Of a stretch of 64,000 nt of DNA, positions 36,646 through 50,536 are shown piece by piece. Position 1 is the first letter of the stretch. Each line of letters begins with the position of its first letter. Location: the sequence record LR597647. The stretch is one strand, 5' to 3'. Both the position numbers and the translations under genes were made by a program. The stretch is from Escherichia phage rV5_ev147. A model generated the notes under the pieces. It was not told the DNA's origin. It ran no database searches and worked only from the letters and a program-made list of their open reading frames with translations.

Positions 36646-36734
36646 TAAATCTTGCCAAGGTTGCAACGGCACTGTTAATTATTTGCTGGTCAGTAACCTT
36701 AACACTGTGTCTTGTATTTCAGTGAGGTGCTTGT

Positions 36735-37153: not shown

Positions 37154-37405
37154 ATGACGAAGATTGACTTGAATGCTGGTGATCATGTTGTTGTCAAATG
37201 CGTTGGAGATTATCTTGGATTCACAATCGGCAATACTTACGAGGCGGTAGTGGCGAAGGTTTATCATGATAAAGTCCTCAGTCTTGTATTTGACTGTGAT
37301 GATGACGGAGATGACCGTTACGTCTGTGAGGTGCTGGCTCGTGACGATAGTGAAGACCAGAAATTCCTGGTTATTGAACTGAACGGTATTTTTGTAGAAC
37401 GTTAA
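37154..37405 (+). CDS. Hypothetical acidic protein
   Basis: Start refined to ATG 37154 after AAGGAG. Confidence 0.4.
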   Translation: MTKIDLNAGDHVVVKCVGDYLGFTIGNTYEAVVAKVYHDKVLSLVFDCDDDGDDRYVCEVLARDDSEDQKFLVIELNGIFVER

Positions 37406-38479: not shown

Positions 38480-38786
38480 CTGGTGCACGATTGCATACCT
38501 TGGGTAGTTAATCTCATTACAGAGCGTTTAAGAGCTCCCTACAAACAACTCCATATTTCGAGCGTAGCGAGAACGCACGTCCGTTTTGACCCAAATCACC
38601 ATACGCTCGGATTTTAACCAAACCCTCGCGGCGTTTCTGTTGACACATTACCGATCCAGTGATAGTATCCACACATAGTTTGTAGAATATGGAGTACACA
38701 ATGAGAACATTGTCCGAAGTTTTAGTGGTGATCCTGATGATCATTACGTCCATAGCGGCTGTTGCCGGAATACTCACGGGTGGAAC

Positions 38787-38999
38787 ATGATCAACACACA
38801 TGCATCTGAAGAGACATCCGAAGGAGTGACCATCTGTCCCTTGGCCGAGCCGGGGAAAGAGGAAAACTTCGATTCTGAAGATTCTCCATCTCCGTCCCAG
38901 GTAGACCCTGAGGCTGATGACCTGACGTGGGAGGACATCGTAGACATCTGGTTCTCTATTATGCCTGAGCACGAAGAGTTCAGAGGTGGTAGACTATGA
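38787..38999 (+). CDS. Hypothetical acidic protein
   Basis: 70-aa ORF preceded by a 29-codon hydrophobic ORF at 38700-38789. Confidence 0.3.
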   Translation: MINTHASEETSEGVTICPLAEPGKEENFDSEDSPSPSQVDPEADDLTWEDIVDIWFSIMPEHEEFRGGRL

Positions 39000-39120
39000 A
39001 GCACCGAGCCCACACCGGTTCCTCATGCTAAAGCATGGCCTGAAGAGGCAAACGTGTATAATTCCTGTGCATTAGAACGTATAAAACCCTGTTCACACTT
39101 TCATTCCCAGAGGAGATTTT

Positions 39121-39336
39121 ATGAAGATAGAGATATTTGGTGGAGCTGACAACACTCGTGGCCTGATTTACCTTGAATTCGATGAATCATACCTGCCAGA
39201 GGTGTTAAATATAGACTCTGTTGCTGAGGCTTTGGGAGTAAACCCTAAAGAACTCCACTCTTGTGCTGAGATCGATGGTTGGGAAGAGACCATGAACATT
39301 GATTTCAGTGAAGTAGAGGATGAACCGCTGGACTGA
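39121..39336 (+). CDS. Hypothetical small acidic protein
   Basis: MKIEIFGG start, acidic tail; last + strand gene before the non-coding region. Confidence 0.4.
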   Translation: MKIEIFGGADNTRGLIYLEFDESYLPEVLNIDSVAEALGVNPKELHSCAEIDGWEETMNIDFSEVEDEPLD

Positions 39337-39463
39337 CACACAATTAGCTGCCCGGCTAAAGTGCTGGAAGCACCTATAACACATCTTTCAACTAAATTTC
39401 CTACCACCACAATCACTTACCTCCCACACATGACTGTTTGCTTGTTTAGTGAGCAGTCATGCC

Positions 39464-39491
39464 TTGACATTCTTGCCTATCCTGATAAAAT
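39464..39491 (+). promoter_or_regulatory. Sigma70-type promoter with extended -10 and overlapping 8-bp inverted repeat
   Basis: TTGACA (39464-39469), 16-bp spacer, TGaTAAAAT; CATGACTG...CAGTCATG palindrome just upstream; no ORF follows. Confidence 0.45.
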
Positions 39492-39497
39492 TAAGTT

Positions 39498-39775
39498 CTT
39501 CTCTTTTCTTTTACCGAGTAATTCGGGTTTTCTGTTCTCTTCGGTTTGAAGGGGTATAGAGATACACCTGAGTGAACAGGGTGAACAACCGAACCATTAG
39601 CTATGGCATTAGCATGGCGAAGCGGACGGGTGACGAAAGAGGGGCCGGAGGACACCAGTCACTGCCATATGATATATGGGTGATAACCTGAAGAGTCTGA
39701 ATAAGTGTTTAAGTACCAGTCAGAGGAAAAGGTGAATGGTAGCCGAAGGGGGGGAGGGGGGTTTCTTGTATCTTT
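39498..39775 (+). ncRNA. Candidate non-coding RNA ending in a G-rich tract
   Basis: About 280 nt downstream of a good promoter with no ORF; local hairpin CCGAGtaatTCGG; ends GGGGGGGAGGGGGGG + T-run. Confidence 0.25.
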
Positions 39776-40806
39776 AATTTGTATATTATGTATACACTTG
39801 TAAACCAATCTAATCTGAATCTGTTTACCACACAAAGCGGATAGAGACAAATATTGCCTATTAAACTTGAATTATTTATAGAAAATACCACAACACCCCT
39901 TAAGTCTTTGATTTTACACACAAATCCTACAGATATTCAACCTCCATATTTAACATACTTGTAACATATTCCATACTCTACCTGTCTGATCAATTTCCCC
40001 AACTACATTCTCATATTTTCCCTGTCTGTACTACCCCTGCCCCGCCGGGAGTCCCGTCATATCTGGCTTTCCAGCAAATATCACACCCACAAATATCATT
40101 GCCTGAAGAGGGTTTCATCCCATAATACCTGCCTTACCTGAAGAGCGCTTCATACACCACGTAAATTTTTTAATTGACCTCCCCCTGCCCCGCCGGAGAG
40201 GTTGGCTTTTCCCACACAGACCTGAAGAGTCAGCCAGAAATATCTGAATAGGCCCAATTCTACCACGATTTTGACCTGACCTACAGGGAGGCCCGAAGGG
40301 TCTAGCTTTCAGCTAGAGTCCTTGCAGGACCTACAGGAGCGCTGCCAGGCGGACGGAATGGGAATACTTCTCATTCTTATAACAATTCTCAAATATCGAG
40401 GCAGTGAGAGAAATTAATAGGCCAGGCCGTTCACACAGTGGCACAACATTTGCAACCTATTTTGTGTGGATGAATGAGAATACCTATCATTGTGAGAACT
40501 GTTATCATTACGGGCAATTTAACATAATACCCATTATGCGCACCACTGGCGATACATACAAGGATTGATAACATGAGTTACAGTTTACGCATATAACAAT
40601 CATATTTCTTACTATTTGTGTGGGATATAGTTAGCAGCCAATAGATTAGATATTGACCTGCGGACTTCCAACCGTCTAGACGTCTAAACGCCCACACAAC
40701 AAGGATTATACATACATTACTGAATGTAAACAGGACCGCAAAAATGCTACCATACCAGTTTGTAAATTTTTCATGCAGCACTTGACAAAGAGGAGGAAAA
40801 CTTGTC

Positions 40807-40852
40807 TGACATAATGGTGACATAACTGACACGATTGACATAATTGACATGC
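40807..40852. repeat. Five tandem TGACA(T/C)(A/G) boxes at about 10-bp phasing
   Basis: TGACATAA at 40807, 40818, 40836 and variants at 40827, 40845. Confidence 0.7.
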
Positions 40853-40936
40853 CTGACTGTTCACGCTCTCATTATTCCCGCCCTTACTATTCACGCCCTT
40901 TACTGCTTACATTCTTGATAGTCTACATGCTTAATG

Positions 40937-40992
40937 GTTTACATGACTAATAGTTTACATAGCTAACTGTTTACGCATAAACTGTTTACACA
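40937..40992. repeat. Four GTTTAC(A/G) iteron-like repeats at 15-16 bp spacing
   Basis: GTTTACATG 40937, GTTTACATA 40953, GTTTACGCA 40969, GTTTACACA 40984. Confidence 0.7.
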
Positions 40993-41002
40993 GATATGAT
41001 AA

Positions 41003-41302
41003 GCCATGCCATTCGTTTGCATGATAACAATAACGATCAACAACAATAAAGACTGAAATGATAACGTTGTTGATTTGACTGACTAACAATTAACAGGCTA
41101 ATAATCTATGACATAATATAAAAGCAGGGCAACTATTAGCAGATCTATAGTTGCCTTGCTTGTTATGTCATGATTAACTAAATACAAGGCAACTATGATC
41201 TGATTAATAGTTTGCAGACAAACTATCACGGGGGTGATGGTTACTGCTTTTATATTATGTCGCGACTCCGTCGCGCCATGCCATTCGTTTGCATAGTTGC
41301 CT
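41003..41302. repeat. Composite repeat locus: 20-bp direct repeat, 18-bp inverted repeat and GGCAACTAT palindromes
   Basis: GCCATGCCATTCGTTTGCAT at 41003 and 41275; GACATAATATAAAAGCAG (41110) with exact reverse complement at 41244; GGCAACTAT/ATAGTTGCC palindrome at 41128-41155. Confidence 0.75.
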
Positions 41303-41955
41303 TATTGTTACAGATAAAATAATTGTATTGTTAATTATTTCTTATCTTTCTATTAGTCATCTAATGATTCCAGTTAGTATAGTAACGTACAGTAAACATT
41401 AGACGACTAAAGATTTCTCTGATTATGATAACTTGCCGTGACAATTTCAGACTGTTTACGAAAAATGTTGACACCTGAGCTGATTTATGTTATGCAATTT
41501 AAACGAATAATTATTTTATGCAGGTATTGACTATTCTGTTATTCTATGGTCGGAATAAATACTTAGCAGGCTATAGAATGGTGAGCGTACGTAAATTCTG
41601 AGATCTGTCGGCTATAGTTATACTCGATTTTTCACGTAGAACACGCTTTTTGGTTTGTGTAAGTGTATGACTTATAAAGATTTTTAGTTGTTGACAAGAT
41701 ATTGAAGATGTGCATCAGGTTAAATTTTGTGCAATAGCTGCATTACGTGCAATTTTGGAAGGAAAACGGGTAAAAATAGCACCGCTACCACACAATGAAA
41801 GGTTATGCAATAGTTATTTTACATGTATATTTGTACAGTGTGTGGGATTGATGGCTCGTCAATTATTCCACTTGCCAGGTAGGGCCGTTTATGGTAGGGA
41901 GGAAGAGCAGACAAAAAGAAAGGGACCTAAGCCCCTTGATAATTCAGTTAAAAAA

Positions 41956-42375
41956 TTATAATGATTCGTATATTTCAAAAATCCGATTTGCCAGGTCGTT
42001 ACGGTACCGGAATTTTTCATCACGTTTGATCATAAGATCTTTATAGCCGTACTCTTTAAGCACTTCATTAACTTTATGGCGGCACACCTTCATATTATCC
42101 TGAGCGTCACCAATAAACCTGTTGCTATGGTGCATGGCTTTAATTTCTTCTTCCAGGACCAGGGCAACTATGCGGACCGGATCAAGCTGATAGGCGGTAA
42201 CATCCATGCGGCATTGTAAACGGCTTTTTACGTCTGCCACCGGATATACTGCAACCTCTTCCCCGTCAACATTGACAATAATTAGTTTACCATCGATTTC
42301 GAATCCTTTCGCCGCCGGACCGTGACAAAAAGCGTTATCAAAGCTATATGCCGGATTATTAGATTTAATGTTCAT
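41956..42375 (-). CDS. Hypothetical protein
   Basis: 139-aa ORF with minus-strand promoter 42424-42452 and SD upstream. Confidence 0.45.
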   Translation of the reverse strand: MNIKSNNPAYSFDNAFCHGPAAKGFEIDGKLIIVNVDGEEVAVYPVADVKSRLQCRMDVTAYQLDPVRIVALVLEEEIKAMHHSNRFIGDAQDNMKVCRHKVNEVLKEYGYKDLMIKRDEKFRYRNDLANRIFEIYESL

Positions 42376-42423
42376 GGTGTTTTTACCTCTTAGTTAATTT
42401 TCTTACAACTTCCCTTCAAAAAA

Positions 42424-42452
42424 GAATATAGCAAAACTGCCGATCCCTGTCA
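42424..42452 (-). promoter_or_regulatory. Sigma70-type promoter (minus strand)
   Basis: On minus strand TTGACA (42452-42447), 17-bp spacer, TATATT (42429-42424). Confidence 0.5.
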
Positions 42453-42518
42453 ACCAGGGATAGCATAATTTTTATGTGATCAAGGGGCTTTAAGCCCCTG
42501 ACCGTGCACCTTGTTGTA

Positions 42519-42782
42519 TTATTTGTTGCTCATCCAGTTTTCCCAAGCTGCCTGATAATCTGCCTCACTACGGCGGATCTCTTCTTGCTCTTCAAGTCGG
42601 ATCTCTTCTTCCAGGTACCCCAAGATGTCAGCCTTTTTGGTCTGGCGTAGCATCCAGTCATCTTTTTTGCGAGTGAAGATCTTATAAGCTTTCTCGCAAA
42701 CCTCTTTTTTGCTACCTTTCTGGACTTCAAGAACACGATAAGCCATATATTGAACTAATTTGAGCTGATCAAGGCGTTTCAT
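42519..42782 (-). CDS. Hypothetical protein
   Basis: 87-aa ORF; 5' hairpin GGGCCaaaaGGCCC then AAAGAGGAAAAA SD. Confidence 0.45.
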   Translation of the reverse strand: MKRLDQLKLVQYMAYRVLEVQKGSKKEVCEKAYKIFTRKKDDWMLRQTKKADILGYLEEEIRLEEQEEIRRSEADYQAAWENWMSNK

Positions 42783-42844
42783 GATGTTTTTCCTCTTTAT
42801 GTGGTTTTTGTTTAGTGGGCCTTTTGGCCCGTGTCATTATCTTA

Positions 42845-43117
42845 TTACTTACGGCGGCAGAATTCAAGCGTTTTTAATTGATAATCTTCCTCAGCCTGGA
42901 GTACAACCGCCTCGATCATTTCGTTGGCATTGTTGAAGCCATATCCTTTAGCGAATTCATCCGCACCACCTTCGTGATCATGTTCTGCGTTCATCGCTTC
43001 CACGAAATGGAATTCAAGATTATTGAGATAAGGGCTTGATGTTCCGTCCTCTTTTTCGATGAGATCCCAAATAGCATTGAAACGTGATTCAACTTCTTGG
43101 TTAATCCAGCTTAACAT
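42845..43117 (-). CDS. Hypothetical protein
   Basis: Start refined to ATG 43117 (GGAAGAGAGG SD); minus-strand promoter TTGACA-18-TAGCAT at 43202-43173. Confidence 0.45.
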   Translation of the reverse strand: MLSWINQEVESRFNAIWDLIEKEDGTSSPYLNNLEFHFVEAMNAEHDHEGGADEFAKGYGFNNANEMIEAVVLQAEEDYQLKTLEFCRRK

Positions 43118-43329
43118 GGCGTTTTCCTCTCTTCCGGTTGTTGTGTGGGCGCTTTTGCCCCCTTCGAGATAAATGCTACCCCACCACCTGGCAGATGTCA
43201 ACGGTTTTTATAGTTTTTATATAGCAGGCACACCCGGTGATTGTCTCCCCCCGTCGCCAGGTGCCTGCCGTGAAACAAGTATAACAAAAAACAGGACCAT
43301 TGCAAGCCCTGTTTTGTAGTTTATAAGGA

Positions 43330-43521
43330 TTATATTTTTTCGCCTATGTAGTCCGGTCGGTTTTTCTCTGTCATGCGCTTTAGCAATTCTTGCATGTTAC
43401 TTATGGCTTGTAGTGTATCCCCTTCCAGGCTTGAATCGACATAATCAGGATCGTCTATGACCTTTCTATGATTATGATAACGCAGTACCGCCAATACCTT
43501 TCTAACTTGTTCGATATTCAT
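43330..43521 (-). CDS. Hypothetical protein
   Basis: 63-aa ORF. Confidence 0.3.
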   Translation of the reverse strand: MNIEQVRKVLAVLRYHNHRKVIDDPDYVDSSLEGDTLQAISNMQELLKRMTEKNRPDYIGEKI

Positions 43522-43670
43522 TTTTACCGCTCTTTAAAACAAGGTGCCAACCGTTTCCAATAGATCACTGACTACCAGGACAATACCGATCAGTACATAC
43601 CTAACCATAAGGAGAAAGAGCGCCAGCGATCCCGCCACAATCCCCAAGGTGATGATTATCTTTCTCATGG

Positions 43671-43955
43671 TTAACGGTTTACGTAAGTTTTCCCGTTTAC
43701 GGTGATGGGCAGATCCTCCAGGTCTGGATCTTCCTTAAGGTCGCGAGCAAGTTCACCGCACCGGACACCCTCGAATCCGTAGTACTCTGTCGTGCCGTCC
43801 TTAAAAGTTTTAGCGGCAAGGCATAAGCGATAAGTAACCCCGATTCGATTGACGGCATGAATATCCGTTAGATTAACCTCTTTTGCCAGCTCTTTAGCCA
43901 TTACAGGCGCATTAAGTCCAACAACCAGGGCAACCACTGCGATCATCTTTTTCAT
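43671..43955 (-). CDS. Small secreted protein
   Basis: Signal-peptide-like MKKMIAVVALVVGLNAPVMA. Confidence 0.45.
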   Translation of the reverse strand: MKKMIAVVALVVGLNAPVMAKELAKEVNLTDIHAVNRIGVTYRLCLAAKTFKDGTTEYYGFEGVRCGELARDLKEDPDLEDLPITVNGKTYVNR

Positions 43956-44046
43956 TGTGTCTATCCTCTTTCTGCTACGTTTAAGGCGGCGGTAACCGCC
44001 TGTTTATGCTTTGTTGGTTAATTTTCGGGTATCGGTATAAATTAAA

Positions 44047-44262
44047 CTATGCTGTACGCTCAACTATAACAACGGTTTGAGGGATCTCACCTTCCACCAC
44101 TATCAAGGCCTTTTTCTGCGTGATGGATATCTTTGCCCGTTGCAGCGTGGCGGTGAAGTCTTTCATTTCGTCACGTGGTGTTTTAGTGCAATACCAGATC
44201 TCAGGCTTGCCGATCTGTAAGTTGCGTAAAAATTCCGTTTTGCCTGTTTTGTTAGTGATCAT
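44047..44262 (-). CDS. Hypothetical protein
   Basis: 71-aa ORF. Confidence 0.35.
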   Translation of the reverse strand: MITNKTGKTEFLRNLQIGKPEIWYCTKTPRDEMKDFTATLQRAKISITQKKALIVVEGEIPQTVVIVERTA

Positions 44263-44271
44263 TTGCCAACC

Positions 44272-44376
44272 TCACCCGATACCGTTGGAAGACAAGATCA
44301 CATTAGCCATGGTTGCAATCAGGCCAATACCCAGGGCAATAACCAGGATCACCGCATCAATTAATTTCTGTTTCAT
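44272..44376 (-). CDS. Small hydrophobic peptide (34 aa)
   Basis: ATG 44376 after GAGGAAAA SD; MKQKLIDAVILVIALGIGLIATMANVILSSNGIG; below ORF-track cutoff. Confidence 0.35.
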   Translation of the reverse strand: MKQKLIDAVILVIALGIGLIATMANVILSSNGIG

Positions 44377-44466
44377 TTTGTTTTCCTCTTCTTGTTCCAG
44401 GTGGCGGACCATTCCACCGCCTTATGTATTATGCTTTGTAAGATGGTTGTTTGTTTTCAAACTATT

Positions 44467-44646
44467 TTAACGATAATCATCGTACGCTTTATTAACCTGG
44501 CGAATATAACATTCAAAAGCCAGATCAATAGATTTATATTCACGGATATACTCACCATAGGAAACCACATACATTTCTATAGCTTCCTCATATGCGAGGA
44601 GAATAGAATCCAAGCCTACGATCTCAGTCTTTGCAATAATAGCCAT
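44467..44646 (-). CDS. Hypothetical small protein (59 aa)
   Basis: ATG 44646 after AGAGGATAAAAA SD; below ORF-track cutoff. Confidence 0.35.
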   Translation of the reverse strand: MAIIAKTEIVGLDSILLAYEEAIEMYVVSYGEYIREYKSIDLAFECYIRQVNKAYDDYR

Positions 44647-44717
44647 GATTTTTATCCTCTTTGTGGTTGGTGGGGCTTGCCCCTTTGATTTATATACTAC
44701 AGTCTTATATGGTCATG

Positions 44718-44951
44718 TCAACTATTTTCAAAAAATTTTTCTGCTGTGATATTTTTCCCGGTAGGGTTCGCTACTTTCAAAATTTTATCATGCACTGGAC
44801 GCCCAAAAGAATAAGCGCCGTACACAGTACACCAATAATCGCCGTCAGGCTGTACTATTACCGCCGCATAGGGTACGCCTTTTTCGTTTTTGCTGACAAA
44901 ATAGATCACGTTGCCATTAATAGCCTCGGCGCGTTTAATTTGTTCCATCAT
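44718..44951 (-). CDS. Hypothetical protein
   Basis: 77-aa ORF; 5' hairpin GGGGCCgaaaaGGCCCC and AAGAGAGG SD. Confidence 0.45.
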   Translation of the reverse strand: MMEQIKRAEAINGNVIYFVSKNEKGVPYAAVIVQPDGDYWCTVYGAYSFGRPVHDKILKVANPTGKNITAEKFFENS

Positions 44952-45006
44952 GATGATTTGCCTCTCTTTATTTTCATAATTGGGGGCCTTTTCGGCCCCG
45001 CCAGGT

Positions 45007-45291
45007 TTATTTGTTGATAGCGTGCAGCGGGAAAGGTACGCCAGGTTGATAGATAACTTTTACAACCTCATCAGGGCAAAAGAAATTACAAAATTCACCC
45101 TGATAAGCCTCATCCTCTTTTAATTCTTCATCAACATACTGGAAAAAGTAGTCAATGCTTGGATAATCCTGACCGGGATTATATTCAACCATGGTTAATA
45201 ACAATTCTTGATCATTCCGTATGATATGCATACCAGCTTTTAAGTATTTGGCTTCCATTTCTACTACATCGCCAACGGTAACAATAGCCAT
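45007..45291 (-). CDS. Hypothetical protein
   Basis: 94-aa ORF. Confidence 0.4.
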   Translation of the reverse strand: MAIVTVGDVVEMEAKYLKAGMHIIRNDQELLLTMVEYNPGQDYPSIDYFFQYVDEELKEDEAYQGEFCNFFCPDEVVKVIYQPGVPFPLHAINK

Positions 45292-45498
45292 GGTTTTAAC
45301 TCCTATCTATCCGGTTAATGATTGGAGGCCTCACCGCCCCCCCGACACCCTTTATTATCCATATTGTAGGACTTGATGCAAGTACTTCTTTAAAAATTTT
45401 TTAAGCGCCTTGGGGGCCGCTGTAACGCCAAAATAATAAAGGCTATGCAACCGCATAGCCTTTATGTGATTATATCGCTGCAGGCCCTGCCAGGGGCC

Positions 45499-45849
45499 TT
45501 ATTTTGCATTCTTTCCTATATTGCCGCTACGGTACCAGCGTTTACGGTGAAAATGGTAATAATCACCATCGGCATTAAACATCAGATGATTTTCAATAAC
45601 CAGCTTACGAAGGTGGGCCGGATCTTGTTCCATTCTTGCCAGATTCTGGCGGCTGTTACGTAAGCGGATAAATTCCATATTCAGGCCGTTGATTGCAGCA
45701 TGGATGTCAAAGTAACCACCTTTGAGACGTTCACGCATGGAGTTAAGCTCAACACAATATACAGATTTCTCACAAATCAAGGTATTAGCCAGGGCGCGGA
45801 CCTGGGCAAGGGGGTTAAGCTCATTAAGGTAATATAGTTTTACTTTCAT
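45499..45849 (-). CDS. Hypothetical protein
   Basis: 116-aa ORF. Confidence 0.4.
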   Translation of the reverse strand: MKVKLYYLNELNPLAQVRALANTLICEKSVYCVELNSMRERLKGGYFDIHAAINGLNMEFIRLRNSRQNLARMEQDPAHLRKLVIENHLMFNADGDYYHFHRKRWYRSGNIGKNAK

Positions 45850-45866
45850 AAAATCACCTGCTGAAA

Positions 45867-46172
45867 TTAGTTTGAGAAAACATCGTTCACAATAGCGATC
45901 ACAATGCCGCCCACCTTGTCACGGTCAACAATGCACAAATCACCATAGATCATGTGGTAGTCTGGATGATCTTTCACGGAATAATCAATGAGTGTTTTCT
46001 TGTCATCCAGCTTACTAACTTCCATTCTCATAACGATATGAGAATCATCAAAGGCATTATTCCGAAAAGTCATAACCTGACCGCCAGGGCACCCGGTGAT
46101 TTCCACCTCCACGCCGTCTACGATCTGACCATCAAAGAAATAAAGATTATTAGCCTGGATAAACATGATCAT
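45867..46172 (-). CDS. Hypothetical protein
   Basis: Start refined to ATG 46172 after AAGGAG; driven by 44-bp repeat copy 1. Confidence 0.4.
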   Translation of the reverse strand: MIMFIQANNLYFFDGQIVDGVEVEITGCPGGQVMTFRNNAFDDSHIVMRMEVSKLDDKKTLIDYSVKDHPDYHMIYGDLCIVDRDKVGGIVIAIVNDVFSN

Positions 46173-46210
46173 TACTCCTTTTTGCACTGATTATTTTAAC
46201 AGGGTTTAAA

Positions 46211-46254
46211 TTTACTTTATTGATGGCCCTGGAGTCAAGGCCATCTAAAAATAA
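46211..46254 (-). promoter_or_regulatory. Conserved 44-bp element copy 1: promoter-like with palindrome around -35
   Basis: Exact 44-mer TTTACTTTATTGATGGCCCTGGAGTCAAGGCCATCTAAAAATAA; on minus strand GATGGCC-TTGACTCCAG-GGCCATC then 18 bp to TAAATT. Confidence 0.5.
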
Positions 46255-46257
46255 ATT

Positions 46258-46458
46258 TTACAGGCCTACAATCTCTTTAATTCGTTTTACTGCTGCCTCA
46301 GCGCCTTGAGGGTAAAAATTATGGTAACCAATCACGCGAGTGATACTAATCGCCGTTTGATGATCTTCATAATCACCTTTAAAGATTTCTTGACCGTCAA
46401 TCAGCACGGCAATTTTTTCTTCTTTTTTGAAGTTAATAACGCGGATATTGTTGCTCAT
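46258..46458 (-). CDS. Hypothetical protein
   Basis: 66-aa ORF; 5' hairpin GGGGAGacaCTCCCC and AAGGAG SD. Confidence 0.4.
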   Translation of the reverse strand: MSNNIRVINFKKEEKIAVLIDGQEIFKGDYEDHQTAISITRVIGYHNFYPQGAEAAVKRIKEIVGL

Positions 46459-46552
46459 TTTGTTTCTCCTTTTGGAACTTTGTCTATGCGGTGGGGAGTG
46501 TCTCCCCGTTGATTGTTATTATCCATATTCTGGATCGGATTGCAACACTCAG

Positions 46553-46594
46553 GGAGAAAAAAATTTGAAAAGTTAGGCCCCAGGGATCGGGGCC
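46553..46594 (-). terminator. Rho-independent terminator (minus strand)
   Basis: On minus strand GGCCCC-gatccct-GGGGCC followed by TAACTTTTCAAATTTTTTT. Confidence 0.5.
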
Positions 46595-46598
46595 GTTA

Positions 46599-46718
46599 TC
46601 AATTACTTACAGCGATAAAATACATCCCTACGCCTAACAATATTTCAAGGGCGATGATCTCAAGCCATACCATAACACGGCGCGCCTTATCGGTGCGGGG
46701 CTTATCCTTGGGTGTCAT
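46599..46718 (-). CDS. Small hydrophobic peptide (39 aa)
   Basis: ATG 46718 after GAGGAAA SD; hydrophobic core; below ORF-track cutoff. Confidence 0.3.
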   Translation of the reverse strand: MTPKDKPRTDKARRVMVWLEIIALEILLGVGMYFIAVSN

Positions 46719-46937
46719 CGTCTCCCCCTTTCCTCCTGTTAGCAGTGACGTGGTTTGCAATGGCCCCCAGGAGTATTATCACCACGCACATTACAAGAAA
46801 AATTATCTCTGTCGTTGTTCGATCCATTGTTATAAAATTCCTTAAGATCAGGCCTGAAAATAAAGCTTTCGTTATTGAATCCATCCCGCCAGGCGGCTGG
46901 CTTCAAATCTTCACTAAAGGGGTTAATTAACGTGGCA

Positions 46938-47309
46938 TTATTTAAACGGCTGGTCCACATATTTTCTATTCCTCTCAAATAGGCGATCCGCCTCAGTTAA
47001 ACAAATCTCATGGGCGTGATCTCTGGTTTTAGCTTCATCGAAAACCTGTTGTGCAAGGCTGCAACGTAGGGAGACTGGAAGATCGCTGTAGTAGGCGTTG
47101 ACAAATGTTTGAGCGTCGTACAGGTCTGAAAATACTTTACCCTTTCTATTATTCCCCTTGTCAACAATTGCAAGGATAACAAGTACAATAGTTGCAACCA
47201 CCCCCAGGAAAATAGATATAATAAACCATAAAAAAGCGGATCTACCCATCTTGCCAGCGATCCAGGCGTTGAACAAGGCAACTACTACAGCCAAAATAAT
47301 AAATTCCAT
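46938..47309 (-). CDS. Membrane protein (two TM helices)
   Basis: Start refined to ATG 47309 after AAGAGG; MEFIILAVVVALFNAWIAG...FLWFIISIFLGVVATIVLVILAIV. Confidence 0.45.
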   Translation of the reverse strand: MEFIILAVVVALFNAWIAGKMGRSAFLWFIISIFLGVVATIVLVILAIVDKGNNRKGKVFSDLYDAQTFVNAYYSDLPVSLRCSLAQQVFDEAKTRDHAHEICLTEADRLFERNRKYVDQPFK

Positions 47310-47373
47310 TCTATGTACCTCTTTTGCAGTTCTGTTTAACAATAAGGCGGCAAATATGCCGCCTGTTACCTGA

Positions 47374-47754
47374 TTAAAAAATATCGCCGTAAATCTTTCC
47401 GCTTTCTGCCCACACCACCACGCGGGGCATGTTATCCCATACATCTTGTTTCAGATTTAACGCGTGCAATTCTTCGGTGGTGCTCATACCGGGCACGGGC
47501 TGATTGTATACTGCAAAACGACCGCCTGCATAATCATAGGCCAGAGTTAAATCACACTGGATCATCTTTTTGATCATGGCGTTAAGCATAGCGTTAGCCG
47601 CGTACTGGTCACGTTTTAAAGGCAACTCTTTGATTAGTTTGCGATAGTTTTCGATATGGTCGCACACTGTTTCACGTGGAAGATCTTTCATATCTTCACG
47701 GAATGTAACCAGGTTAAACATAACGGTGTCAATAGCTTTAGTAGTGTTTTTCAT
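47374..47754 (-). CDS. Hypothetical protein
   Basis: Start refined to ATG 47754 after AAGAGGAAAA. Confidence 0.45.
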   Translation of the reverse strand: MKNTTKAIDTVMFNLVTFREDMKDLPRETVCDHIENYRKLIKELPLKRDQYAANAMLNAMIKKMIQCDLTLAYDYAGGRFAVYNQPVPGMSTTEELHALNLKQDVWDNMPRVVVWAESGKIYGDIF

Positions 47755-47844
47755 GATGTTTTCCTCTTTGTTTTGTGGGGGGCAAGTCATCTCGCCCCTT
47801 GAGTTTTTAATATAGCAGGTTTTTAGATTATTGCAACACTTTAT

Positions 47845-48468
47845 TTATGAAAAACTCATCTCCCCATATTCATCCACATCAAACCGCCAATCATTGGCTT
47901 CAATAAGGCCGATCAGGTTTTCGGTAGTAAACTGTTCAAGATAGGCCTCCTCCAGGTCTACGTAAACCTTGCGGGATAGCTCCCGTACCGTCTCGGTGAT
48001 CAGCTCTTCCAGCTCTTCAACTTTGTCCTCTTGCTTGGTGGTCAGGTCTAGCCAATTAGTATCGATGCACCCTCCTATTGTGTTTTCGTGATGATAATGG
48101 CTAAACGGGATACGTTCAACACTGGCTGATAACTCGCCATCGTGCATTGTGCCGAACAAGTGACGAATTGATCGGAACTTGGTCAGGGCCTTTACTTTAC
48201 GCAAGAATTTTTCTAAATCCACGTTTTCAGCACTGATTGACGCGCCATCGCCTTGACACCAAAAGCCGGACCAACGTACTTCGGTATCTTCAAGGCCGTA
48301 CTCTGGAAAGACATATTCTTTATAGTGTTCAATTACACTTTCTGCAAAAAAATTATCCCCGCTGTGTTCTTCTCTTTCGCGGACCATTTCAATAGCTTTT
48401 TCTTTTTGTTCGTCGGTCAGCACGTCGAAAGATAAATTGTAACCTGTGGTAATGTTAACGGTGGTCAT
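47845..48468 (-). CDS. Hypothetical protein
   Basis: 207-aa ORF; promoter TTGACA-16-TATACT, 5' hairpin GGCGGGAAaactTTCCCGCC, AGGAG SD. Confidence 0.5.
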   Translation of the reverse strand: MTTVNITTGYNLSFDVLTDEQKEKAIEMVREREEHSGDNFFAESVIEHYKEYVFPEYGLEDTEVRWSGFWCQGDGASISAENVDLEKFLRKVKALTKFRSIRHLFGTMHDGELSASVERIPFSHYHHENTIGGCIDTNWLDLTTKQEDKVEELEELITETVRELSRKVYVDLEEAYLEQFTTENLIGLIEANDWRFDVDEYGEMSFS

Positions 48469-48542
48469 GATATTTTCTCCTATTTTCTTTGTTAGTGGCG
48501 GGAAGTTTTCCCGCCTGTGTGTTTAAGTATACTTATCGAGAT

Positions 48543-48803
48543 TTACTTGTCAACACTATTTTTTAAATTATTGTGGCGTAAAATGTTCAAGATCTCTTCA
48601 ACGTCATCAACACGGCGGCAATTTTTAAACGCTACCAGTTGCCCCAGTATTTTAATCACTGGACGGCCTTGCCAGTGCCCTTGGAGAAAGCGAGCTTTAA
48701 CTTTATCGGTGGAACTATCACGCCACCAAATGGCCTTGTTGTTGCAGTAGTAAAAATTATTCAGGACAACATCAACTTTATCAAAATTTTTTAATTTACG
48801 CAT
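48543..48803 (-). CDS. Hypothetical protein
   Basis: 86-aa ORF. Confidence 0.4.
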   Translation of the reverse strand: MRKLKNFDKVDVVLNNFYYCNNKAIWWRDSSTDKVKARFLQGHWQGRPVIKILGQLVAFKNCRRVDDVEEILNILRHNNLKNSVDK

Positions 48804-49045
48804 GGCGTTTACTCCTTTCTCTCTTTGATGTGGTTAGTATAGCTAACCTGTTTAAGATGTCAAGCTTTAAATAAAATCACTGTCAATGATATTTTTAACG
48901 CCATAAAACGGCCCTAAGCGATGTTTTCAGGTTAAAGGGGGGGCGATTGCATAGGTGGGGCCTTTTTGGCGCTTACAGGGCCAACCGGGGGCGCTATTCG
49001 TAGGATAGAAATAAAAAGCCCCGCACAATGGCGGGGCGTTGGTTG

Positions 49046-49243
49046 TTATTTGCCTTTGTGGCGGTATCGTTCCGCCTGTCGTTCACGTTCCAAAAGCAGG
49101 CCCGGTAATTTGCGATCATAATGATTCCGCCAGATCTTCCCAAATCTTTTTGGCTTATTCAGTTTATTGTTGCGCTGGCGGCGTTCCGGCAGCTCTTCGG
49201 AAGCATGAGATCGCTTTACAATCTTCTCAAAATTAATCTTCAT
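49046..49243 (-). CDS. Hypothetical basic protein
   Basis: Start refined to ATG 49243 after AAGGGGGG; Arg/Lys-rich. Confidence 0.4.
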   Translation of the reverse strand: MKINFEKIVKRSHASEELPERRQRNNKLNKPKRFGKIWRNHYDRKLPGLLLERERQAERYRHKGK

Positions 49244-49297
49244 ATATTCCCCCCTTGCTAACTTCAATATTGGCCTGAATAGCCCGGATACGGCGCT

Positions 49298-49585
49298 TTA
49301 TAACTTCCTGATCTGTGTGATCGTATCCCAAAAGTCTACGATTTTTGCGCCTCCAGCCTTTAGGCGGTATAGTGTTTCTTGCATCTTGTAAGCCGGGATC
49401 GGTCGCGGTGTTACCTGGTCGCCCTTCTCATTCTTGTACTTGATAATATAGTCTTCATTGTCGTTGAATACCCAAAACGGGTATTCTGTAAGGGCGTTGC
49501 TATCTTTTTCGTTTTTAGATTGGATCTTGTTTACAATTAAAGCCGTAGCAATAGCGCCAATAATAAAACTTGCCCCGCTGATCAT
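49298..49585 (-). CDS. Membrane-anchored protein
   Basis: Start refined to ATG 49585 after AAAGGAGAAAG; N-terminal TM ISGASFIIGAIATALIV. Confidence 0.45.
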   Translation of the reverse strand: MISGASFIIGAIATALIVNKIQSKNEKDSNALTEYPFWVFNDNEDYIIKYKNEKGDQVTPRPIPAYKMQETLYRLKAGGAKIVDFWDTITQIRKL

Positions 49586-49660
49586 GTACTTTCTCCTTTC
49601 ATTGTATTGATAAACTATCTTTATAGATGGCCCTGCTACCAGGACCACCGAAAAAACAGC

Positions 49661-49906
49661 TTATTTGACGATACCGACAAAACAGATCCCGCCTTCCCCT
49701 ATATAGGCAATATCGGTAATTTTATAATTTGTCAAGATCCGCGTGTTCAGATCATTAATAAAATCGGTCATCGCGTTGGTGTAGTTGTCTTCCGTGTCTA
49801 AGGCATAATCCCAGGTGTACACCTTTTTACGTCCGAAGCCTTTTACCATGATACGGGCGCTTTTGGTGTTGGTAGGGGCATAATATTTGGTGATTAGTGC
49901 TGCCAT
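49661..49906 (-). CDS. Hypothetical protein
   Basis: 81-aa ORF driven by 44-bp repeat copy 2; TAGGAG SD. Confidence 0.45.
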   Translation of the reverse strand: MAALITKYYAPTNTKSARIMVKGFGRKKVYTWDYALDTEDNYTNAMTDFINDLNTRILTNYKITDIAYIGEGGICFVGIVK

Positions 49907-49949
49907 GGTTTTAACTCCTATGCATTAGTTCAGTGTTAACAGTATAAAG

Positions 49950-49993
49950 TTTACTTTATTGATGGCCCTGGAGTCAAGGCCATCTAAAAATAA
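49950..49993 (-). promoter_or_regulatory. Conserved 44-bp element copy 2
   Basis: Identical 44-mer to 46211-46254. Confidence 0.5.
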
Positions 49994-49995
49994 TC

Positions 49996-50337
49996 TTACT
50001 CGTTTTCTTCCAGTTCTGCAAGCTCTTCTTTTGCTTCTTCTAACTCTGTCTGTAATTCCTGGTATTCTTCATCGTCCTCAATATCCAGGCTGTCGATGTA
50101 GTCGCTAAATCCGCAGCGGTAAGCGATAGGATCTAGCTCCTTGAGGATACGCGACGGAAGAAAAGAAATGTTTCCGATCATAATTTCGCCGTAGATCTCG
50201 TCTAACCATTCATCATAGTTTTCGTCGTACTTGTCCTCGTCGATTTCAAAGTTATCGATCTTGTTCTCAAGGTCTGCGATCTGTTTTTTCAGTGCGGCGA
50301 TCTGAATAGCTTTTTCTGCGGCGGTCATAGTAGTCAT
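49996..50337 (-). CDS. Hypothetical acidic coiled-coil protein
   Basis: 113-aa ORF; promoter TTGACA-16-TATACT and 5' hairpin GGGAAaactTCCC upstream. Confidence 0.45.
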   Translation of the reverse strand: MTTMTAAEKAIQIAALKKQIADLENKIDNFEIDEDKYDENYDEWLDEIYGEIMIGNISFLPSRILKELDPIAYRCGFSDYIDSLDIEDDEEYQELQTELEEAKEELAELEENE

Positions 50338-50416
50338 GGTGTTTTCTCCTTTTGTGTGCTCTGGGAAGTTTTCCCGTTTACGTGTTTAAGTATATCAATC
50401 TAAGTTAGCTTGTCAA

Positions 50417-50536
50417 TTAAAAATTTAAGAAAAATTTTGCAAAACTGTTAGCGCTACTCATTAACATTTGCGCCAGGATGTAACCGACAACGCAGGCGAT
50501 AATAGTTACCTTTGTGTATTGGCGTGTAGTGCTCAT
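50417..50536 (-). CDS. Small hydrophobic peptide (39 aa)
   Basis: ATG 50536 after AAGGGGG; MSTTRQYTKVTIIACVVGYILAQMLM...; driven by 44-bp repeat copy 3; below ORF-track cutoff. Confidence 0.35.
   Translation of the reverse strand: MSTTRQYTKVTIIACVVGYILAQMLMSSANSFAKFFLNF

What the first reader, a model, noticed from the sequence alone, without database searches (positions are those of the whole stretch)
38700..50536. Multiple sub-60-codon hydrophobic peptide genes missed by the ORF track
Short ORFs with good SD sequences encode single-TM-like peptides: 38700-38789 (+), 44272-44376 (-), 46599-46718 (-) and 50417-50536 (-); others such as 33858-33959 (+) and 46702-46827 (-) are also candidates. 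Small membrane peptides in phage early regions often act as toxins, holin-like factors or inhibitors of host membrane machinery.
Basis: seen in the sequence. Interest (0 to 1): 0.4.

Follow-up and report, generated by a model that had tools for sequence, protein, structure and literature searches.

The report
Small membrane-peptide genes in rV5-like phage
The short hydrophobic ORFs are real, conserved genes for tiny single-pass membrane peptides in an rV5-like E. coli phage, but most are already annotated as hypothetical proteins and their function remains unknown.

Summary
The window matches Escherichia phage rV5_ev156 (Vequintavirus). All six ORFs exist; the first is off by one base (38701-38790). 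Each has a transmembrane-like hydrophobic core, and five have a clear Shine-Dalgarno (SD) motif.

Comparison with 15-24 related genomes shows protein-coding selection for 38701-38790, 46599-46718 and 50417-50536 (synonymous excess, p = 6e-6 to 2e-4). Long genes served as positive controls and non-coding DNA as negative controls. 44272-44376 and an extra peptide at 43534-43668 are conserved across two phage subfamilies.

They are not new. 44272-44412, 46599-46718, 50417-50536 and 33858-33959 are CDS in the window's own GenBank record and in rV5 (gp168, gp176, gp188, gp140). Five of the six match PHROG families of unknown function.

The new result concerns 46702-46827, which no examined record annotates. 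The coding signature switches at its ATG from the annotated overlapping frame into its frame. It is probably a real embedded 41-aa gene, and the tail of the annotated 'gp177' CDS is probably not under selection.

None belongs to a known holin, toxin or small-regulator family, and none lies near the lysis genes. Function is inferred only: early-expressed inner-membrane peptides that probably bind larger membrane proteins.

The parts
38701..38790 (+). Peptide A, 29 aa (MRTLSEVLVVILMIITSIAAVAGILTGGT). Its stop overlaps the start of the next gene (ATGA at 38787-38790). An alternative upstream ATG lies at 38689.
   Evidence: S14/N3, p = 6e-6; S18/N9, p = 6e-6. The ORF was found in 15 of 15 relatives. 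It matches PHROG 34195 (29 aa). The four upstream codons are variable. The opposite-strand CDS that LR694165 calls here (38517-38801) has S14/N36 outside the overlap and in-frame stops in 7 of 16 relatives.
44272..44376 (-). Peptide B, 34 aa (MKQKLIDAVILVIALGIGLIATMANVILSSNGIG). A 46-aa form from the ATG at 44412 exists only in one allele group.
   Evidence: Two alleles only 53% identical share the motif ATMANMILSS[NH]GIG. B occurs in Vequintavirus, Phapecoctavirus ESCO25 and Justusliebigvirus KKP_3264, in conserved synteny with the downstream 71-aa gene. It matches PHROG 14631 (34 aa) and is rV5 gp168. The selection test alone is weak: S6/N5, p = 0.056; S11/N14, p = 0.03.
46599..46718 (-). 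Peptide C, 39 aa (MTPKDKPRTDKARRVMVWLEIIALEILLGVGMYFIAVSN). It has a basic N-terminal tail and a TM segment containing two conserved Glu residues. It is the last gene of its operon.
   Evidence: S17/N12, p = 7e-5. It is full length in 118 of 118 matching records, all Vequintavirus. The TM segment is nearly invariant in the loci examined, while the N-terminal tail varies and tolerates an in-frame codon insertion. It matches PHROG 13629 and is rV5 gp176. A terminator-like hairpin follows at 46594-46576.
50417..50536 (-). Peptide D, 39 aa (MSTTRQYTKVTIIACVVGYILAQMLMSSANSFAKFFLNF).
   Evidence: S10/N4, p = 2e-4; S13/N7, p = 8e-5. The ORF and its AGGGGG/GGAGG SD are conserved. It matches PHROG 16391 and is rV5 gp188. 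A strong sigma-70-like promoter (TTGACA-16-TATACT with TG) lies immediately downstream at 50416-50389.
33858..33959 (+). Peptide E, 33 aa (MGVIEKLVPNVEIACFEIMFAIAVVVNVLGYGY), located 9 nt after the hpf-like gene.
   Evidence: The ORF is intact in 14 of 14 relatives and the GAGGTG SD is conserved. It matches PHROG 15151 and is rV5 gp140. There are too few variable sites for a test on its own (S4/N7). Pooled with H and I: S16/N18, p = 0.007. The ATG is replaced by ATT in three relatives.
46702..46827 (-). Peptide F, 41 aa (MDRTTTEIIFLVMCVVIILLGAIANHVTANRRKGGDDDTQG). It is embedded out of frame in the 3' part of the annotated 'gp177' CDS. Its tail overlaps the SD and start codon of C.
   Evidence: In 46739-46827 the F frame gives S12/N11 (p = 0.007) and all 11 replacements are conservative. 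The annotated frame there gives S5/N21 (p = 0.8). A Fisher test between the two frames gives p = 0.02. The ATG is present in 24 of 24 genomes. F has no PHROG match and is not annotated in any record examined.
46829..46960 (-). The selected N-terminal part (about 44 codons) of the annotated 'gp177' CDS (46739-46960). Downstream of 46828 this frame loses its coding signature.
   Evidence: The gp177 frame gives S14/N17 (p = 0.003) here and the F frame is neutral. The stop position of this frame varies between genomes, giving 73 or 81 aa.
46938..47309 (-). A 123-aa protein with two N-terminal TM segments (rV5 gp178). It is the first gene of the cluster gp178 > gp177' > F > C. The BASEL annotation labels it 'putative holin'.
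   Evidence: S53/N13, p = 9e-21. It matches PHROG 13090, unknown function, and has no Pfam family above cut-off. The BASEL label came from a TM-helix heuristic (PMC8594841).
43534..43668 (-). Peptide G, 44 aa (MRKIIITLGIVAGSLALFLLMVRYVLIGIVLVVSDLLETVGTLF). It starts 2 nt after the stop of a 94-aa gene that begins with a signal-peptide-like stretch and has no SD of its own.
   Evidence: The ORF is kept in 17 loci, including ESCO25 and KKP_3264 (unannotated in both) and an IMG/VR relative at 45% identity. It matches PHROG 16005 and is rV5 gp165. The synonymous excess is modest: S22/N22, p = 0.003.
37027..37167 (+). Peptide H, 46 aa, with a GTG start in the window (MTDFTEALMMALSVLALSVCFGALFTSLVKVLHTVLLPKERSNDED).
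   Evidence: The start is GTG in some relatives and ATG in others, and the GAGGTGAGG SD is conserved. It matches PHROG 16755 and is rV5 gp151. There are too few variable sites for a test on its own (S6/N6).
36642..36725 (+). Candidate peptide I, 27 aa (MINLAKVATALLIICWSVTLTLCLVFQ). It fills the gap between two genes, and its ATG overlaps the upstream stop (ATGA).
   Evidence: The ORF is intact in 14 of 14 relatives, with S6/N5, p = 0.05. It has no PHROG match and is unannotated in every record examined.
38640..38668 (+). Sigma-70-like promoter (TTGACA-17-TAGTAT with TG) just upstream of A. A terminator-like hairpin precedes it at 38451-38470.
   Evidence: Consensus scan only. The region holds 68 promoter-like sites, against 41.6 +/- 5.4 in shuffles.

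Best explanation
These are genuine protein-coding genes for very small (27-46 aa) single-pass inner-membrane peptides. They are packed into operons of the two convergent non-structural arms of a Vequintavirus genome, and these operons carry sigma-70-type promoters, so they are probably early.

**Shown here.**
- The ORFs, start codons and SD motifs are conserved.
- Substitutions are biased towards synonymous or conservative hydrophobic changes in the predicted frame.
- The genes are tightly coupled to their neighbours (ATGA overlaps, gaps of 2-10 nt).

**Inferred.** After synthesis by host ribosomes the peptides insert into the E. coli inner membrane. A, B, C, D and G would be N-in, from basic N-terminal flanks. 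F and H would be C-in, from basic C-terminal flanks. There they would act as membrane-embedded ligands, each binding a larger integral membrane protein of the host or the phage. Possible targets are a transporter, an envelope-synthesis enzyme, the divisome, or the entry machinery of superinfecting phage. This differs from generic pore formation.

The basis for that preference is the conservation of specific residues rather than hydrophobicity alone. C's TM segment, with two Glu residues, is nearly invariant in the loci examined (one Ala>Ser and one C-terminal variant). B keeps an ATMANMILSSxGIG motif across two subfamilies while the rest of its helix diverges to 53% identity.

F is a previously unannotated member. 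It is most simply translated from its own conserved ATG, embedded in the unconstrained 3' part of the annotated gp177 frame.
For: **Identity and annotation.** The window matches LR694165 at 100%. B (long form), C, D and E are CDS there and in rV5. A, B (short form), C, D, E, G and H are CDS in the BASEL phages.

**Coding selection.**
- A: S14/N3, p = 6e-6.
- C: S17/N12, p = 7e-5.
- D: S10/N4, p = 2e-4.
- F region: S12/N11, p = 0.007.
- E+H+I pooled: S16/N18, p = 0.007.
- Controls behaved as expected.

**Protein-level conservation.** This includes in-frame indels and alleles shared across subfamilies. C is present in 118 of 118 matching Vequintavirus records.

**Enrichment.** Among supported sub-60-codon genes in 33-52 kb, 6 of 7 are TM-like, against 6 of 109 spurious-frame ORFs (Fisher p = 2e-6).

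**Promoters.** Promoter-like sites are enriched (68 against 41.6 +/- 5.4), and the rV5 annotators marked sigma-70 promoters here.

**Precedents for the mechanism.** The 37-residue phage peptide LysM wedges into MurJ (PMC12506998). Bacterial small membrane proteins commonly act by binding larger membrane proteins (PMC12648545). The T4 ac gene product is assumed to act on AcrAB-TolC in the membrane (PMC13250531).
Against: **No experimental data.** I found no expression, localisation or phenotype data for any of these peptides.

**The mechanism is inference.** It rests on size, hydrophobicity and conservation pattern only.

**Weakly supported members.**
- G and F tolerate many hydrophobic replacements, which would also fit a non-specific membrane role.
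- E, H and I individually have too few variable sites. E has ATT in place of ATG in three relatives, and one of those has no nearby ATG.
- B's selection test is weak on its own (p = 0.03-0.06).
- F's SD is 11-12 nt from its ATG, and its significance is modest after allowing for the several frames and sub-regions tested.

**Timing.** 'Early' rests on consensus promoter matches, not on transcript data.
Confidence: 0.55

Rival explanations
1. Some or all of the ORFs are chance open frames in AT-rich intergenic DNA and are not translated.
For: - Hydrophobic ORFs do arise by chance: 6 of 109 spurious-frame small ORFs are TM-like, and several lie in the non-coding 39.3-41.9 kb gap.
- E, H and I each have too few variable sites for a test on their own.
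- E has lost its ATG in three relatives.
- I has no PHROG match.
Against: - A, C and D have strong synonymous excess in the correct frame only, apart from the expected antisense echo.
- B and G are conserved as ORFs between subfamilies whose DNA is about 78-80% identical.
- C is intact in 118 of 118 records.
- Non-hydrophobic gap ORFs show no such signal.
- The ORFs fit the intergenic gaps exactly and have conserved SD motifs.
Confidence: 0.07
2. The cluster gp178 (two TM segments) > gp177' > F > C, or another of the peptides, is the unidentified holin, antiholin or lysis-timing system of vequintaviruses. It would work by oligomerising in the membrane and collapsing the proton-motive force at a set time.
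For: - The holin of the rV5-like phage LL12 'could not be positively identified' (PMC6658697).
- BASEL annotators labelled the gp178 homologue 'putative holin'.
- Three of the four consecutive, overlapping genes encode membrane proteins, and the cluster ends in a terminator-like hairpin.
- C has acidic residues inside its TM segment.
Against: - No holin family matched any member.
- The BASEL label came from a TM-helix heuristic (PMC8594841).
- No endolysin or spanin is annotated in the neighbourhood in any record examined, and in LL12 these are gp90 and gp65/66 (PMC6658697).
- As far as I know, peptides of 29-41 aa with one TM segment are smaller than any canonical holin.
- The operons carry sigma-70-type promoters rather than an obviously late arrangement.
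Confidence: 0.13
3. The peptides are non-specific membrane-depolarising toxins of the type I toxin kind (TisB, Hok, Ldr or TimP-like). They would be used for host shut-off or would kill the cell when infection is blocked.
For: - Their size and hydrophobicity resemble type I toxins.
- F has a weak sub-threshold match to TimP (E = 0.03).
- Vequintaviruses are among the phages in which blocked infection produces a 'mutual destruction' phenotype, which the authors attribute to toxic phage products (PMC13250531).
Against: - No toxin family matched: F scores 14.5 bits against TimP's cut-off of 45, and the others have no match.
- No known antitoxin sRNA or other Rfam family occurs in the window.
- Specific residues are conserved strictly in B and C, which generic membrane damage does not require.
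- Nine depolarising peptides would be redundant.
Confidence: 0.12
4. F is not an independent gene. It is the C-terminal part of a +1 frameshift product: ribosomes translating gp177 slip on TTT_T (GAA-TTT-TAT to TTT-ATA). The result would be an ~85-aa protein with a 42-aa N-terminal domain, F's TM segment and F's charged tail.
For: - The coding signature passes from the gp177 frame to the F frame within a few codons of a TTTT run.
- An SD-like [AG]AGGA lies 1-2 nt upstream of the TTT codon, an arrangement that recalls the prfB +1 site. The motif [AG]AGGA-N-TTTT is conserved in 24 of 24 genomes.
- F's SD-to-ATG spacing is poor for ordinary initiation.
Against: - The 0-frame A-site codon is UAU, an ordinary sense codon. 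It is not the stop or rare codon that known +1 sites use (established knowledge of prfB).
- An ATG sits at the start of the constrained F region in 24 of 24 genomes, although a synonymous AAT-to-AAC change in the gp177 frame would remove it.
- The conserved motif also serves as F's SD and encodes conserved gp177 residues, so its conservation does not discriminate.
Confidence: 0.08

Closest known systems
PHROG families 34195, 14631, 13629, 16391, 15151 (also 16005 and 16755), corresponding to rV5 gp168, gp176, gp188, gp140, gp165 and gp151
   Same: A-E, G and H match these families over their full length at E = 1e-21 to 1e-36. They are the same genes as the rV5 and BASEL CDS.
   Different: The families carry no function. 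F and I have no family.
Bacterial small inner-membrane regulators (AcrZ, MgrB, KdpF, CydX, MgtS, PmrR and others; reviewed in PMC12648545)
   Same: They are 27-49 aa with one TM helix, and they act by binding a larger membrane protein. Constraint falls on particular helix or flank residues, as seen for B and C.
   Different: There is no sequence relationship. These peptides are phage-encoded, and no partner is known.
Single-gene lysis peptides of ssRNA phages, such as the 37-residue LysM that wedges into MurJ (PMC12506998), and embedded sgl genes (PMC7693330)
   Same: They are phage-encoded single-TM peptides of about 35-40 aa with no recognisable homologues. They are often embedded out of frame in another gene, as F is.
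   Different: This is a large dsDNA myovirus that has an endolysin and spanins (PMC6658697), so it has no need for single-gene lysis. The genes here sit in operons with early-type promoters. No lysis phenotype is known.
Canonical holins and pinholins
   Same: They are small phage membrane proteins. The holin of this phage group is still unassigned.
   Different: Canonical holins are larger, usually with 2-3 TM segments or a sizeable periplasmic domain. There was no family match, and the peptides are not adjacent to lysis genes (PMC6658697).
Type I toxin peptides (Hok, Ldr, TisB, Ibs, ShoB, TimP)
   Same: They are under 60 aa and hydrophobic, and insert into the inner membrane.
   Different: There was no family membership and no recognised antisense antitoxin RNA. 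These genes are arranged in operons and translationally coupled rather than as stand-alone toxin-antitoxin loci.
T4 early membrane proteins (Imm, Sp, Ac)
   Same: They are early-expressed small phage inner-membrane proteins that act on entry of superinfecting phage or on host membrane machines. The ac product is assumed to act on AcrAB-TolC (PMC13250531).
   Different: Imm and Sp are larger (from memory, about 83-97 aa). I did not run a direct comparison with these proteins.

Membership tests
PHROG small-protein families of unknown function (34195, 14631, 13629, 16391, 15151) | Full-length HMM match | tested here: met
   A-E match end to end at E = 4e-21 to 7e-32. F and I have no match.
Holins (canonical classes I-III and pinholins) | At least one TM helix | tested here: met
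   Hydrophobic cores have a mean Kyte-Doolittle value of 1.9-2.95 over 17-19 residues.
Holins (canonical classes I-III and pinholins) | Match to a described holin family | tested here: not met
   No Pfam or NCBIfam holin family matched any peptide or gp178. The PHROG categories are all 'unknown function'.
Holins (canonical classes I-III and pinholins) | Typical size and architecture (roughly 60-220 aa, usually 2-3 TM segments or a large periplasmic domain) | tested here: not met
   The peptides are 27-46 aa with one hydrophobic core. Only gp178, at 123 aa with two TM segments, fits.
Holins (canonical classes I-III and pinholins) | Linkage to endolysin or spanin genes | tested here: not met
   No lysis gene appears among the annotated features in 33-56 kb of six annotated relatives. 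In LL12 the endolysin is gp90 and the spanins are gp65/66, elsewhere in the genome (PMC6658697).
Holins (canonical classes I-III and pinholins) | Late expression and triggered membrane permeabilisation | not testable with these tools
   Only consensus sigma-70-like promoters are available.
Type I toxins (Hok/Gef, Ldr, TisB, Ibs, ShoB, TimP) | Match to a toxin family model | tested here: not met
   The best match is F against TimP, at 14.5 bits versus a cut-off of 45. The others have no match.
Type I toxins (Hok/Gef, Ldr, TisB, Ibs, ShoB, TimP) | Cognate antisense RNA antitoxin | tested here: inconclusive
   No Rfam family was found in the whole window at gathering thresholds, or in 38.3-42.1 kb at E <= 0.1. 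A novel antisense RNA cannot be excluded.
Known bacterial small membrane regulators (AcrZ, MgrB, KdpF and others) | Match to the family model | tested here: not met
   No Pfam or NCBIfam match at E <= 1. The resemblance is functional analogy only.
Anti-phage defence proteins (PADLOC) | Match to any defence-system model | tested here: not met
   No matches at E <= 1.
prfB-type programmed +1 frameshift site (considered for gp177/F) | P-site codon that can re-pair in the +1 frame | tested here: met
   TTT_T is present in 24 of 24 genomes.
prfB-type programmed +1 frameshift site (considered for gp177/F) | SD-like element a few nt upstream of the shift codon | tested here: met
   [AG]AGGA lies 1-2 nt upstream of TTT in 24 of 24 genomes.
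prfB-type programmed +1 frameshift site (considered for gp177/F) | Slowly decoded 0-frame A-site codon (stop or rare codon) | tested here: not met
   The A-site codon is TAT (Tyr) in all genomes.
prfB-type programmed +1 frameshift site (considered for gp177/F) | Detected trans-frame product | not testable with these tools
   This needs mass spectrometry or a reporter assay.

The most novel reading that the evidence does not exclude
The gp178 > gp177' > F > C cluster contains a hidden, universally conserved 41-aa gene (F) embedded out of frame in an annotated CDS. Either this cluster is the long-missing holin or lysis-timing module of vequintaviruses, or F is expressed by a prfB-like +1 frameshift that anchors the gp177 N-terminal domain to the membrane.
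Probability: 0.15. Interest if true: 0.55.

Novelty: new member of a known kind. Interest (0 to 1): 0.25.

Why it matters
**Main message.** The four principal ORFs and one of the two secondary ones are real genes, but they are already in public annotation and in PHROGs as hypothetical proteins.

**What this analysis adds.**
- Direct evolutionary evidence that they are coding. In this region almost all genuine sub-60-codon genes are single-TM peptides.
- Start-codon assignments for A (29 aa) and B (34 aa).
- Three probable annotation errors in vequintavirus records: a spurious opposite-strand CDS over A in LR694165, an unconstrained tail on the 'gp177' CDS, and CDS calls without coding signature at 38483-38617 and 40578-40850.
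- Two unannotated candidates, F and I.

**Wider relevance.** rV5-like phages are widely isolated and used for E. coli biocontrol and therapy. About nine conserved early membrane peptides of unknown function make a compact, testable set for finding phage inhibitors of host membrane proteins. Such inhibitors have led to antibacterial targets elsewhere (LysM and MurJ).

Tried and rejected
- **IMG/VR search.** I searched with the neighbouring 207-aa protein to gather many relatives. Only 2 close loci came back, so the GenBank phage collection was used instead.
- **B, 46-aa form.** It returned only near-identical 'hypothetical' proteins.
- **B, exhaustive phmmer.** A search of 1.84 billion representatives found only B's own cluster.
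- **B, tblastn against phages.** Low-complexity masking crippled it and only 18 records were found, so it says nothing about breadth.
- **Distant blastn.** A, C, D, E, F, H and I have no DNA-level relatives outside Vequintavirus, so deeper comparative power was not available.
- **Family searches.** Pfam, NCBIfam and PADLOC at E <= 1 gave only sub-threshold compositional matches.
- **Rfam and tRNA.** Rfam on the gap and on the whole window found nothing, and tRNA search found nothing.
- **Literature.** I found no transcriptomic, Ribo-seq or proteomic data for vequintavirus early genes. The one 'proteomics' paper is in silico.
- **Long forms rejected.** The long form of C (TTG at 46760) and the long form of F (ATG at 46884) are not conserved.
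- **Antisense artefact.** Many small ORFs antisense to real genes scored p < 0.01 because the two frames share third codon positions. These were filtered out.
- **Structure prediction.** Not run. A helix prediction for a 30-40-aa hydrophobic peptide would not discriminate between the hypotheses.

Full report
**Identity of the window.** The 38-51 kb stretch matches Escherichia phage rV5_ev156 (LR694165.1; Vequintavirus) over its full length at 100.0% identity. Window coordinate equals record coordinate minus 64000, with a one-base length difference somewhere between 46.7 and 50.4 kb. More than 230 phage records share parts of the region. The finding spans two convergent arms of small non-structural genes. 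Plus-strand genes end near 39.3 kb and minus-strand genes end near 41.95 kb, with a 2.6-kb stretch between them that has no supported ORF.

**Checking the observation.** All six ORFs are present. The first is one base out of register, so 38700-38789 gives a meaningless translation. The intended ORF is 38701-38790 (MRTLSEV…, 29 aa), with an alternative ATG at 38689. The other coordinates are exact.
- Each peptide has a hydrophobic core well above the usual transmembrane threshold. The best-window Kyte-Doolittle means are 1.9-2.95.
- Five have a good SD motif at 3-8 nt.
- 46702-46827 has only AAGGA (GAGGA in most relatives) 11-12 nt upstream.

**Already annotated.** 'Missed by the ORF track' is true only because the ORFs are under 60 codons.
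- 44272-44412, 46599-46718, 50417-50536 and 33858-33959 are CDS in the window's own GenBank record.
- They are also CDS in the 2008 rV5 annotation, as gp168, gp176, gp188 and gp140.
- The BASEL phages additionally annotate 38689-38790 and use the 105-nt form of the 44272 gene.
- Five of the six match PHROG families of unknown function over their full length. 46702-46827 has no family.

**Method for testing whether they are real genes.** I collected the homologous region from 15-24 vequintaviruses, plus two phages of the neighbouring subfamily. For each ORF I counted single-nucleotide codon variants that are synonymous (S) or not (N). I compared the counts with the fraction expected for random mutation, about 0.25, in all six frames.

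**Results of the selection test.**
- Controls behaved as expected. Six neighbouring genes of 70-207 aa gave p = 4e-4 to 1e-35 in their own frame, and five of them were at or below 1e-9. Three non-coding segments gave nothing.
- Peptide A: S14/N3, p = 6e-6.
- Peptide C: S17/N12, p = 7e-5.
- Peptide D: S10/N4, p = 2e-4.
- In a census of all 216 ORFs of 20-59 aa between 33 and 52 kb, the only other strong signals came from frames antisense to real genes, which share third codon positions.
- After removing those, 1 of 55 control ORFs reached p < 0.01. Non-hydrophobic ORFs lying in intergenic gaps on the coding strand were all neutral.

**Candidate A against the opposite-strand CDS.** The window's own record annotates an opposite-strand CDS (38517-38801) instead of A. 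Outside the overlap with A that ORF has S14/N36, and in-frame stops interrupt it in 7 of 16 relatives. A is therefore the gene and the other call is spurious.

**Candidates with less statistical power.**
- **B.** It has few variable sites within an allele group (p = 0.03-0.06). However, it exists as two alleles only 53% identical that keep the same length and the C-terminal motif ATMANMILSS[NH]GIG. It occurs in Vequintavirus, Phapecoctavirus ESCO25 and Justusliebigvirus KKP_3264, always just upstream of the same 71-aa gene. The 12-codon extension to 44412 belongs to one allele group only.
It is likewise kept in 17 loci across both subfamilies. It starts 2 nt after the stop of a 94-aa gene that begins with a signal-peptide-like stretch.
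- **E, H (37027-37167) and I (36642-36725, unannotated).** They lie in a stretch that is 96-99% identical in all relatives and absent outside the genus. Each alone is untestable, but pooled they give S16/N18, p = 0.007.
- E's ATG is ATT in three relatives, and one of these has no nearby ATG.
- H alternates between GTG and ATG starts, which is what a real start codon does.

**The one new result: 46702-46827 (F).** Every annotated record examined calls a different frame here, a 73- or 81-aa 'gp177' (46739-46960 in the window). None calls F.
- Both ORFs are open in all 24 genomes.
- Upstream of F's ATG (46829-46960), the gp177 frame carries the coding signature (S14/N17, p = 0.003) and the F frame is neutral.
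- From the ATG onward (46739-46827), the F frame carries the signature (S12/N11, p = 0.007). All 11 replacements are conservative swaps of the kind a membrane helix tolerates, such as I>V, V>A and M>V. The gp177 frame is neutral there (S5/N21). The contrast between the frames gives Fisher p = 0.02.
- The gp177 stop position also varies between genomes.
- F's ATG is present in 24 of 24 genomes, although a synonymous AAT-to-AAC change in the gp177 frame would remove it.

The simplest reading is that F is a real 41-aa gene embedded in the unconstrained 3' tail of gp177. F's own tail overlaps the SD and start codon of C.

A less likely alternative is a +1 slip on TTT_T, 1-2 nt downstream of the conserved GAGGA. 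Two features of a prfB-type site are present. The third, a slow A-site codon, is not, because the codon is TAT. I put independent initiation at about 0.65, frameshifting at about 0.1, and no translation of F at about 0.25.

**Context.**
- Sigma-70-type promoter matches are enriched (68 against 41.6 +/- 5.4 in shuffles). They include 11-of-12 matches at sites the rV5 authors annotated as promoters.
- A follows a terminator-like hairpin and a promoter-like site.
- C is followed at once by a terminator-like hairpin, so gp178 (123 aa, two TM segments) > gp177' > F > C reads as one operon. Three of its four products are membrane proteins.
- D lies immediately upstream of a strong promoter.
- All neighbours fall in PHROG families of unknown function and none has a Pfam domain above cut-off.

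**Comparison with known families.**
- No peptide matches any Pfam, NCBIfam or PADLOC model. The best match is F against the TimP toxin, at 14.5 bits versus a cut-off of 45.
- B has no detectable relative beyond its own cluster among 1.84 billion representatives.
- C is confined to Vequintavirus and universal within it, present in 118 of 118 matching records.
- Rfam finds nothing in the window, so no known antitoxin RNA is present.
- The lysis genes of this phage group lie elsewhere. [quoted passage not shown]
- The BASEL 'putative holin' label on the gp178 homologue came from a TM-helix screen (PMC8594841).

The peptides are therefore not members of any holin, type I toxin or known small-regulator family. 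The resemblance to those classes is one of size and hydrophobicity only.

**Most likely mechanism (inference).** These are early-expressed peptides that insert into the host inner membrane and bind larger membrane proteins.
- The argument for specific binding over generic membrane damage is the pattern of constraint. C's TM segment, with two glutamates, is nearly invariant in the loci examined. B keeps a precise C-terminal motif while the rest of its helix drifts.
- Precedents are the 37-residue phage peptide LysM, which wedges into MurJ (PMC12506998), bacterial small membrane regulators (PMC12648545), and the T4 ac product, which is assumed to act on AcrAB-TolC (PMC13250531).
- G and F show looser constraint, so a less specific role cannot be excluded for them.
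- A lysis-timing role for the gp178-C cluster remains possible because the holin is unassigned.
- I found no expression or phenotype data for any of these genes.

**Verdict.**
- The gene-level interpretation is supported.
- The functional interpretation is untested.
- The novelty is low. These are catalogued hypothetical small membrane proteins, plus one probably new embedded gene (F), one further candidate (I) and several annotation corrections.

Noticed in passing
window 39340-41950: A 2.6-kb stretch between the convergent gene arms has no ORF with a coding signature, no tRNA and no Rfam match. It holds tandem and direct short repeats at 40807-40974 (TGACATAAT about 4.7 times; TTACATGCTTAATAGT about 3.4 times). 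ACTGTTTACGCATA-like repeats occur four times. An exact 20-nt repeat lies at 41003 and 41275. Nested inverted repeats lie at 41110-41310, including an 18-nt perfect pair. Cumulative GC skew peaks here. It looks like an origin of replication with iterons, or a regulatory region.
   Followed up: partly
window 40578-40850 (-): A 90-aa ORF is annotated as 'putative membrane protein' in phage A51.2 and as a hypothetical protein in LR694165. It shows no coding signature (S11/N43) and is intact in only 8 of 17 relatives, so it is probably a spurious call inside the non-coding gap.
   Followed up: yes
window 38483-38617 (+): A 135-nt CDS annotated in FV3 and the BASEL phages shows S7/N32, so there is no evidence of protein-coding selection. 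The 38430-38690 spacer instead holds a terminator-like hairpin (38451-38470) and a promoter-like site (38640-38668) upstream of peptide A.
   Followed up: partly
window 38517-38801 (-): The 'hypothetical protein' CDS in LR694165 on the opposite strand to peptide A is spurious. It has no coding signature outside the overlap with A, and in-frame stops occur in 7 of 16 relatives.
   Followed up: yes
window 36642-36725 (+): An unannotated 27-aa TM-like ORF (MINLAKVATALLIICWSVTLTLCLVFQ) fills the gap between two genes almost exactly. Its ATG overlaps the upstream stop, and a GAGG lies 4 nt upstream. It is intact in 14 of 14 relatives, with S6/N5.
   Followed up: partly
window 43671-43955 (-) with 43534-43668 (-): A 94-aa protein starts with a signal-peptide-like stretch (MKKMIAVVALVVGLNAPVMA…). 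The 44-aa peptide G follows it by 2 nt. The pair is syntenic in Vequintavirus, Phapecoctavirus and Justusliebigvirus, which suggests a secreted protein working with a membrane peptide.
   Followed up: partly
L025 4279-4398 (-) and L026 3762-3881 (-): The related Stephanstirmvirinae phages carry a further 39-aa peptide with a C-terminal TM segment: MSKYTVEYTVENPAVSEGKKMTFAISIIAFVVTILSIIL in L025 and MKIIPVQYSVINPAYEEGRKTSMVLCYIATIAMLLYIVF in L026. None of the window peptides I used as queries matched it. Small membrane peptides seem to be a general feature of these early regions.
   Followed up: no
window 33531-33848 (+): A phage-encoded homologue of the ribosome hibernation factor (RaiA/HPF, S30AE) lies immediately upstream of peptide E. 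It is annotated as such in relatives and matches PHROG 8990.
   Followed up: no
window 46719-50416: The window differs from LR694165.1 by a single-base length difference somewhere in this interval. Annotated coordinates of the 50417-50536 gene are offset by 1, although BLAST reports 100.0% identity.
   Followed up: no
phage records MG0656xx ('Campylobacter phage …', UNVERIFIED): About 24 records labelled as Campylobacter jejuni phages are 92-96% identical to E. coli vequintaviruses over this region. The host labels are probably wrong, or the records are contaminants.
   Followed up: no
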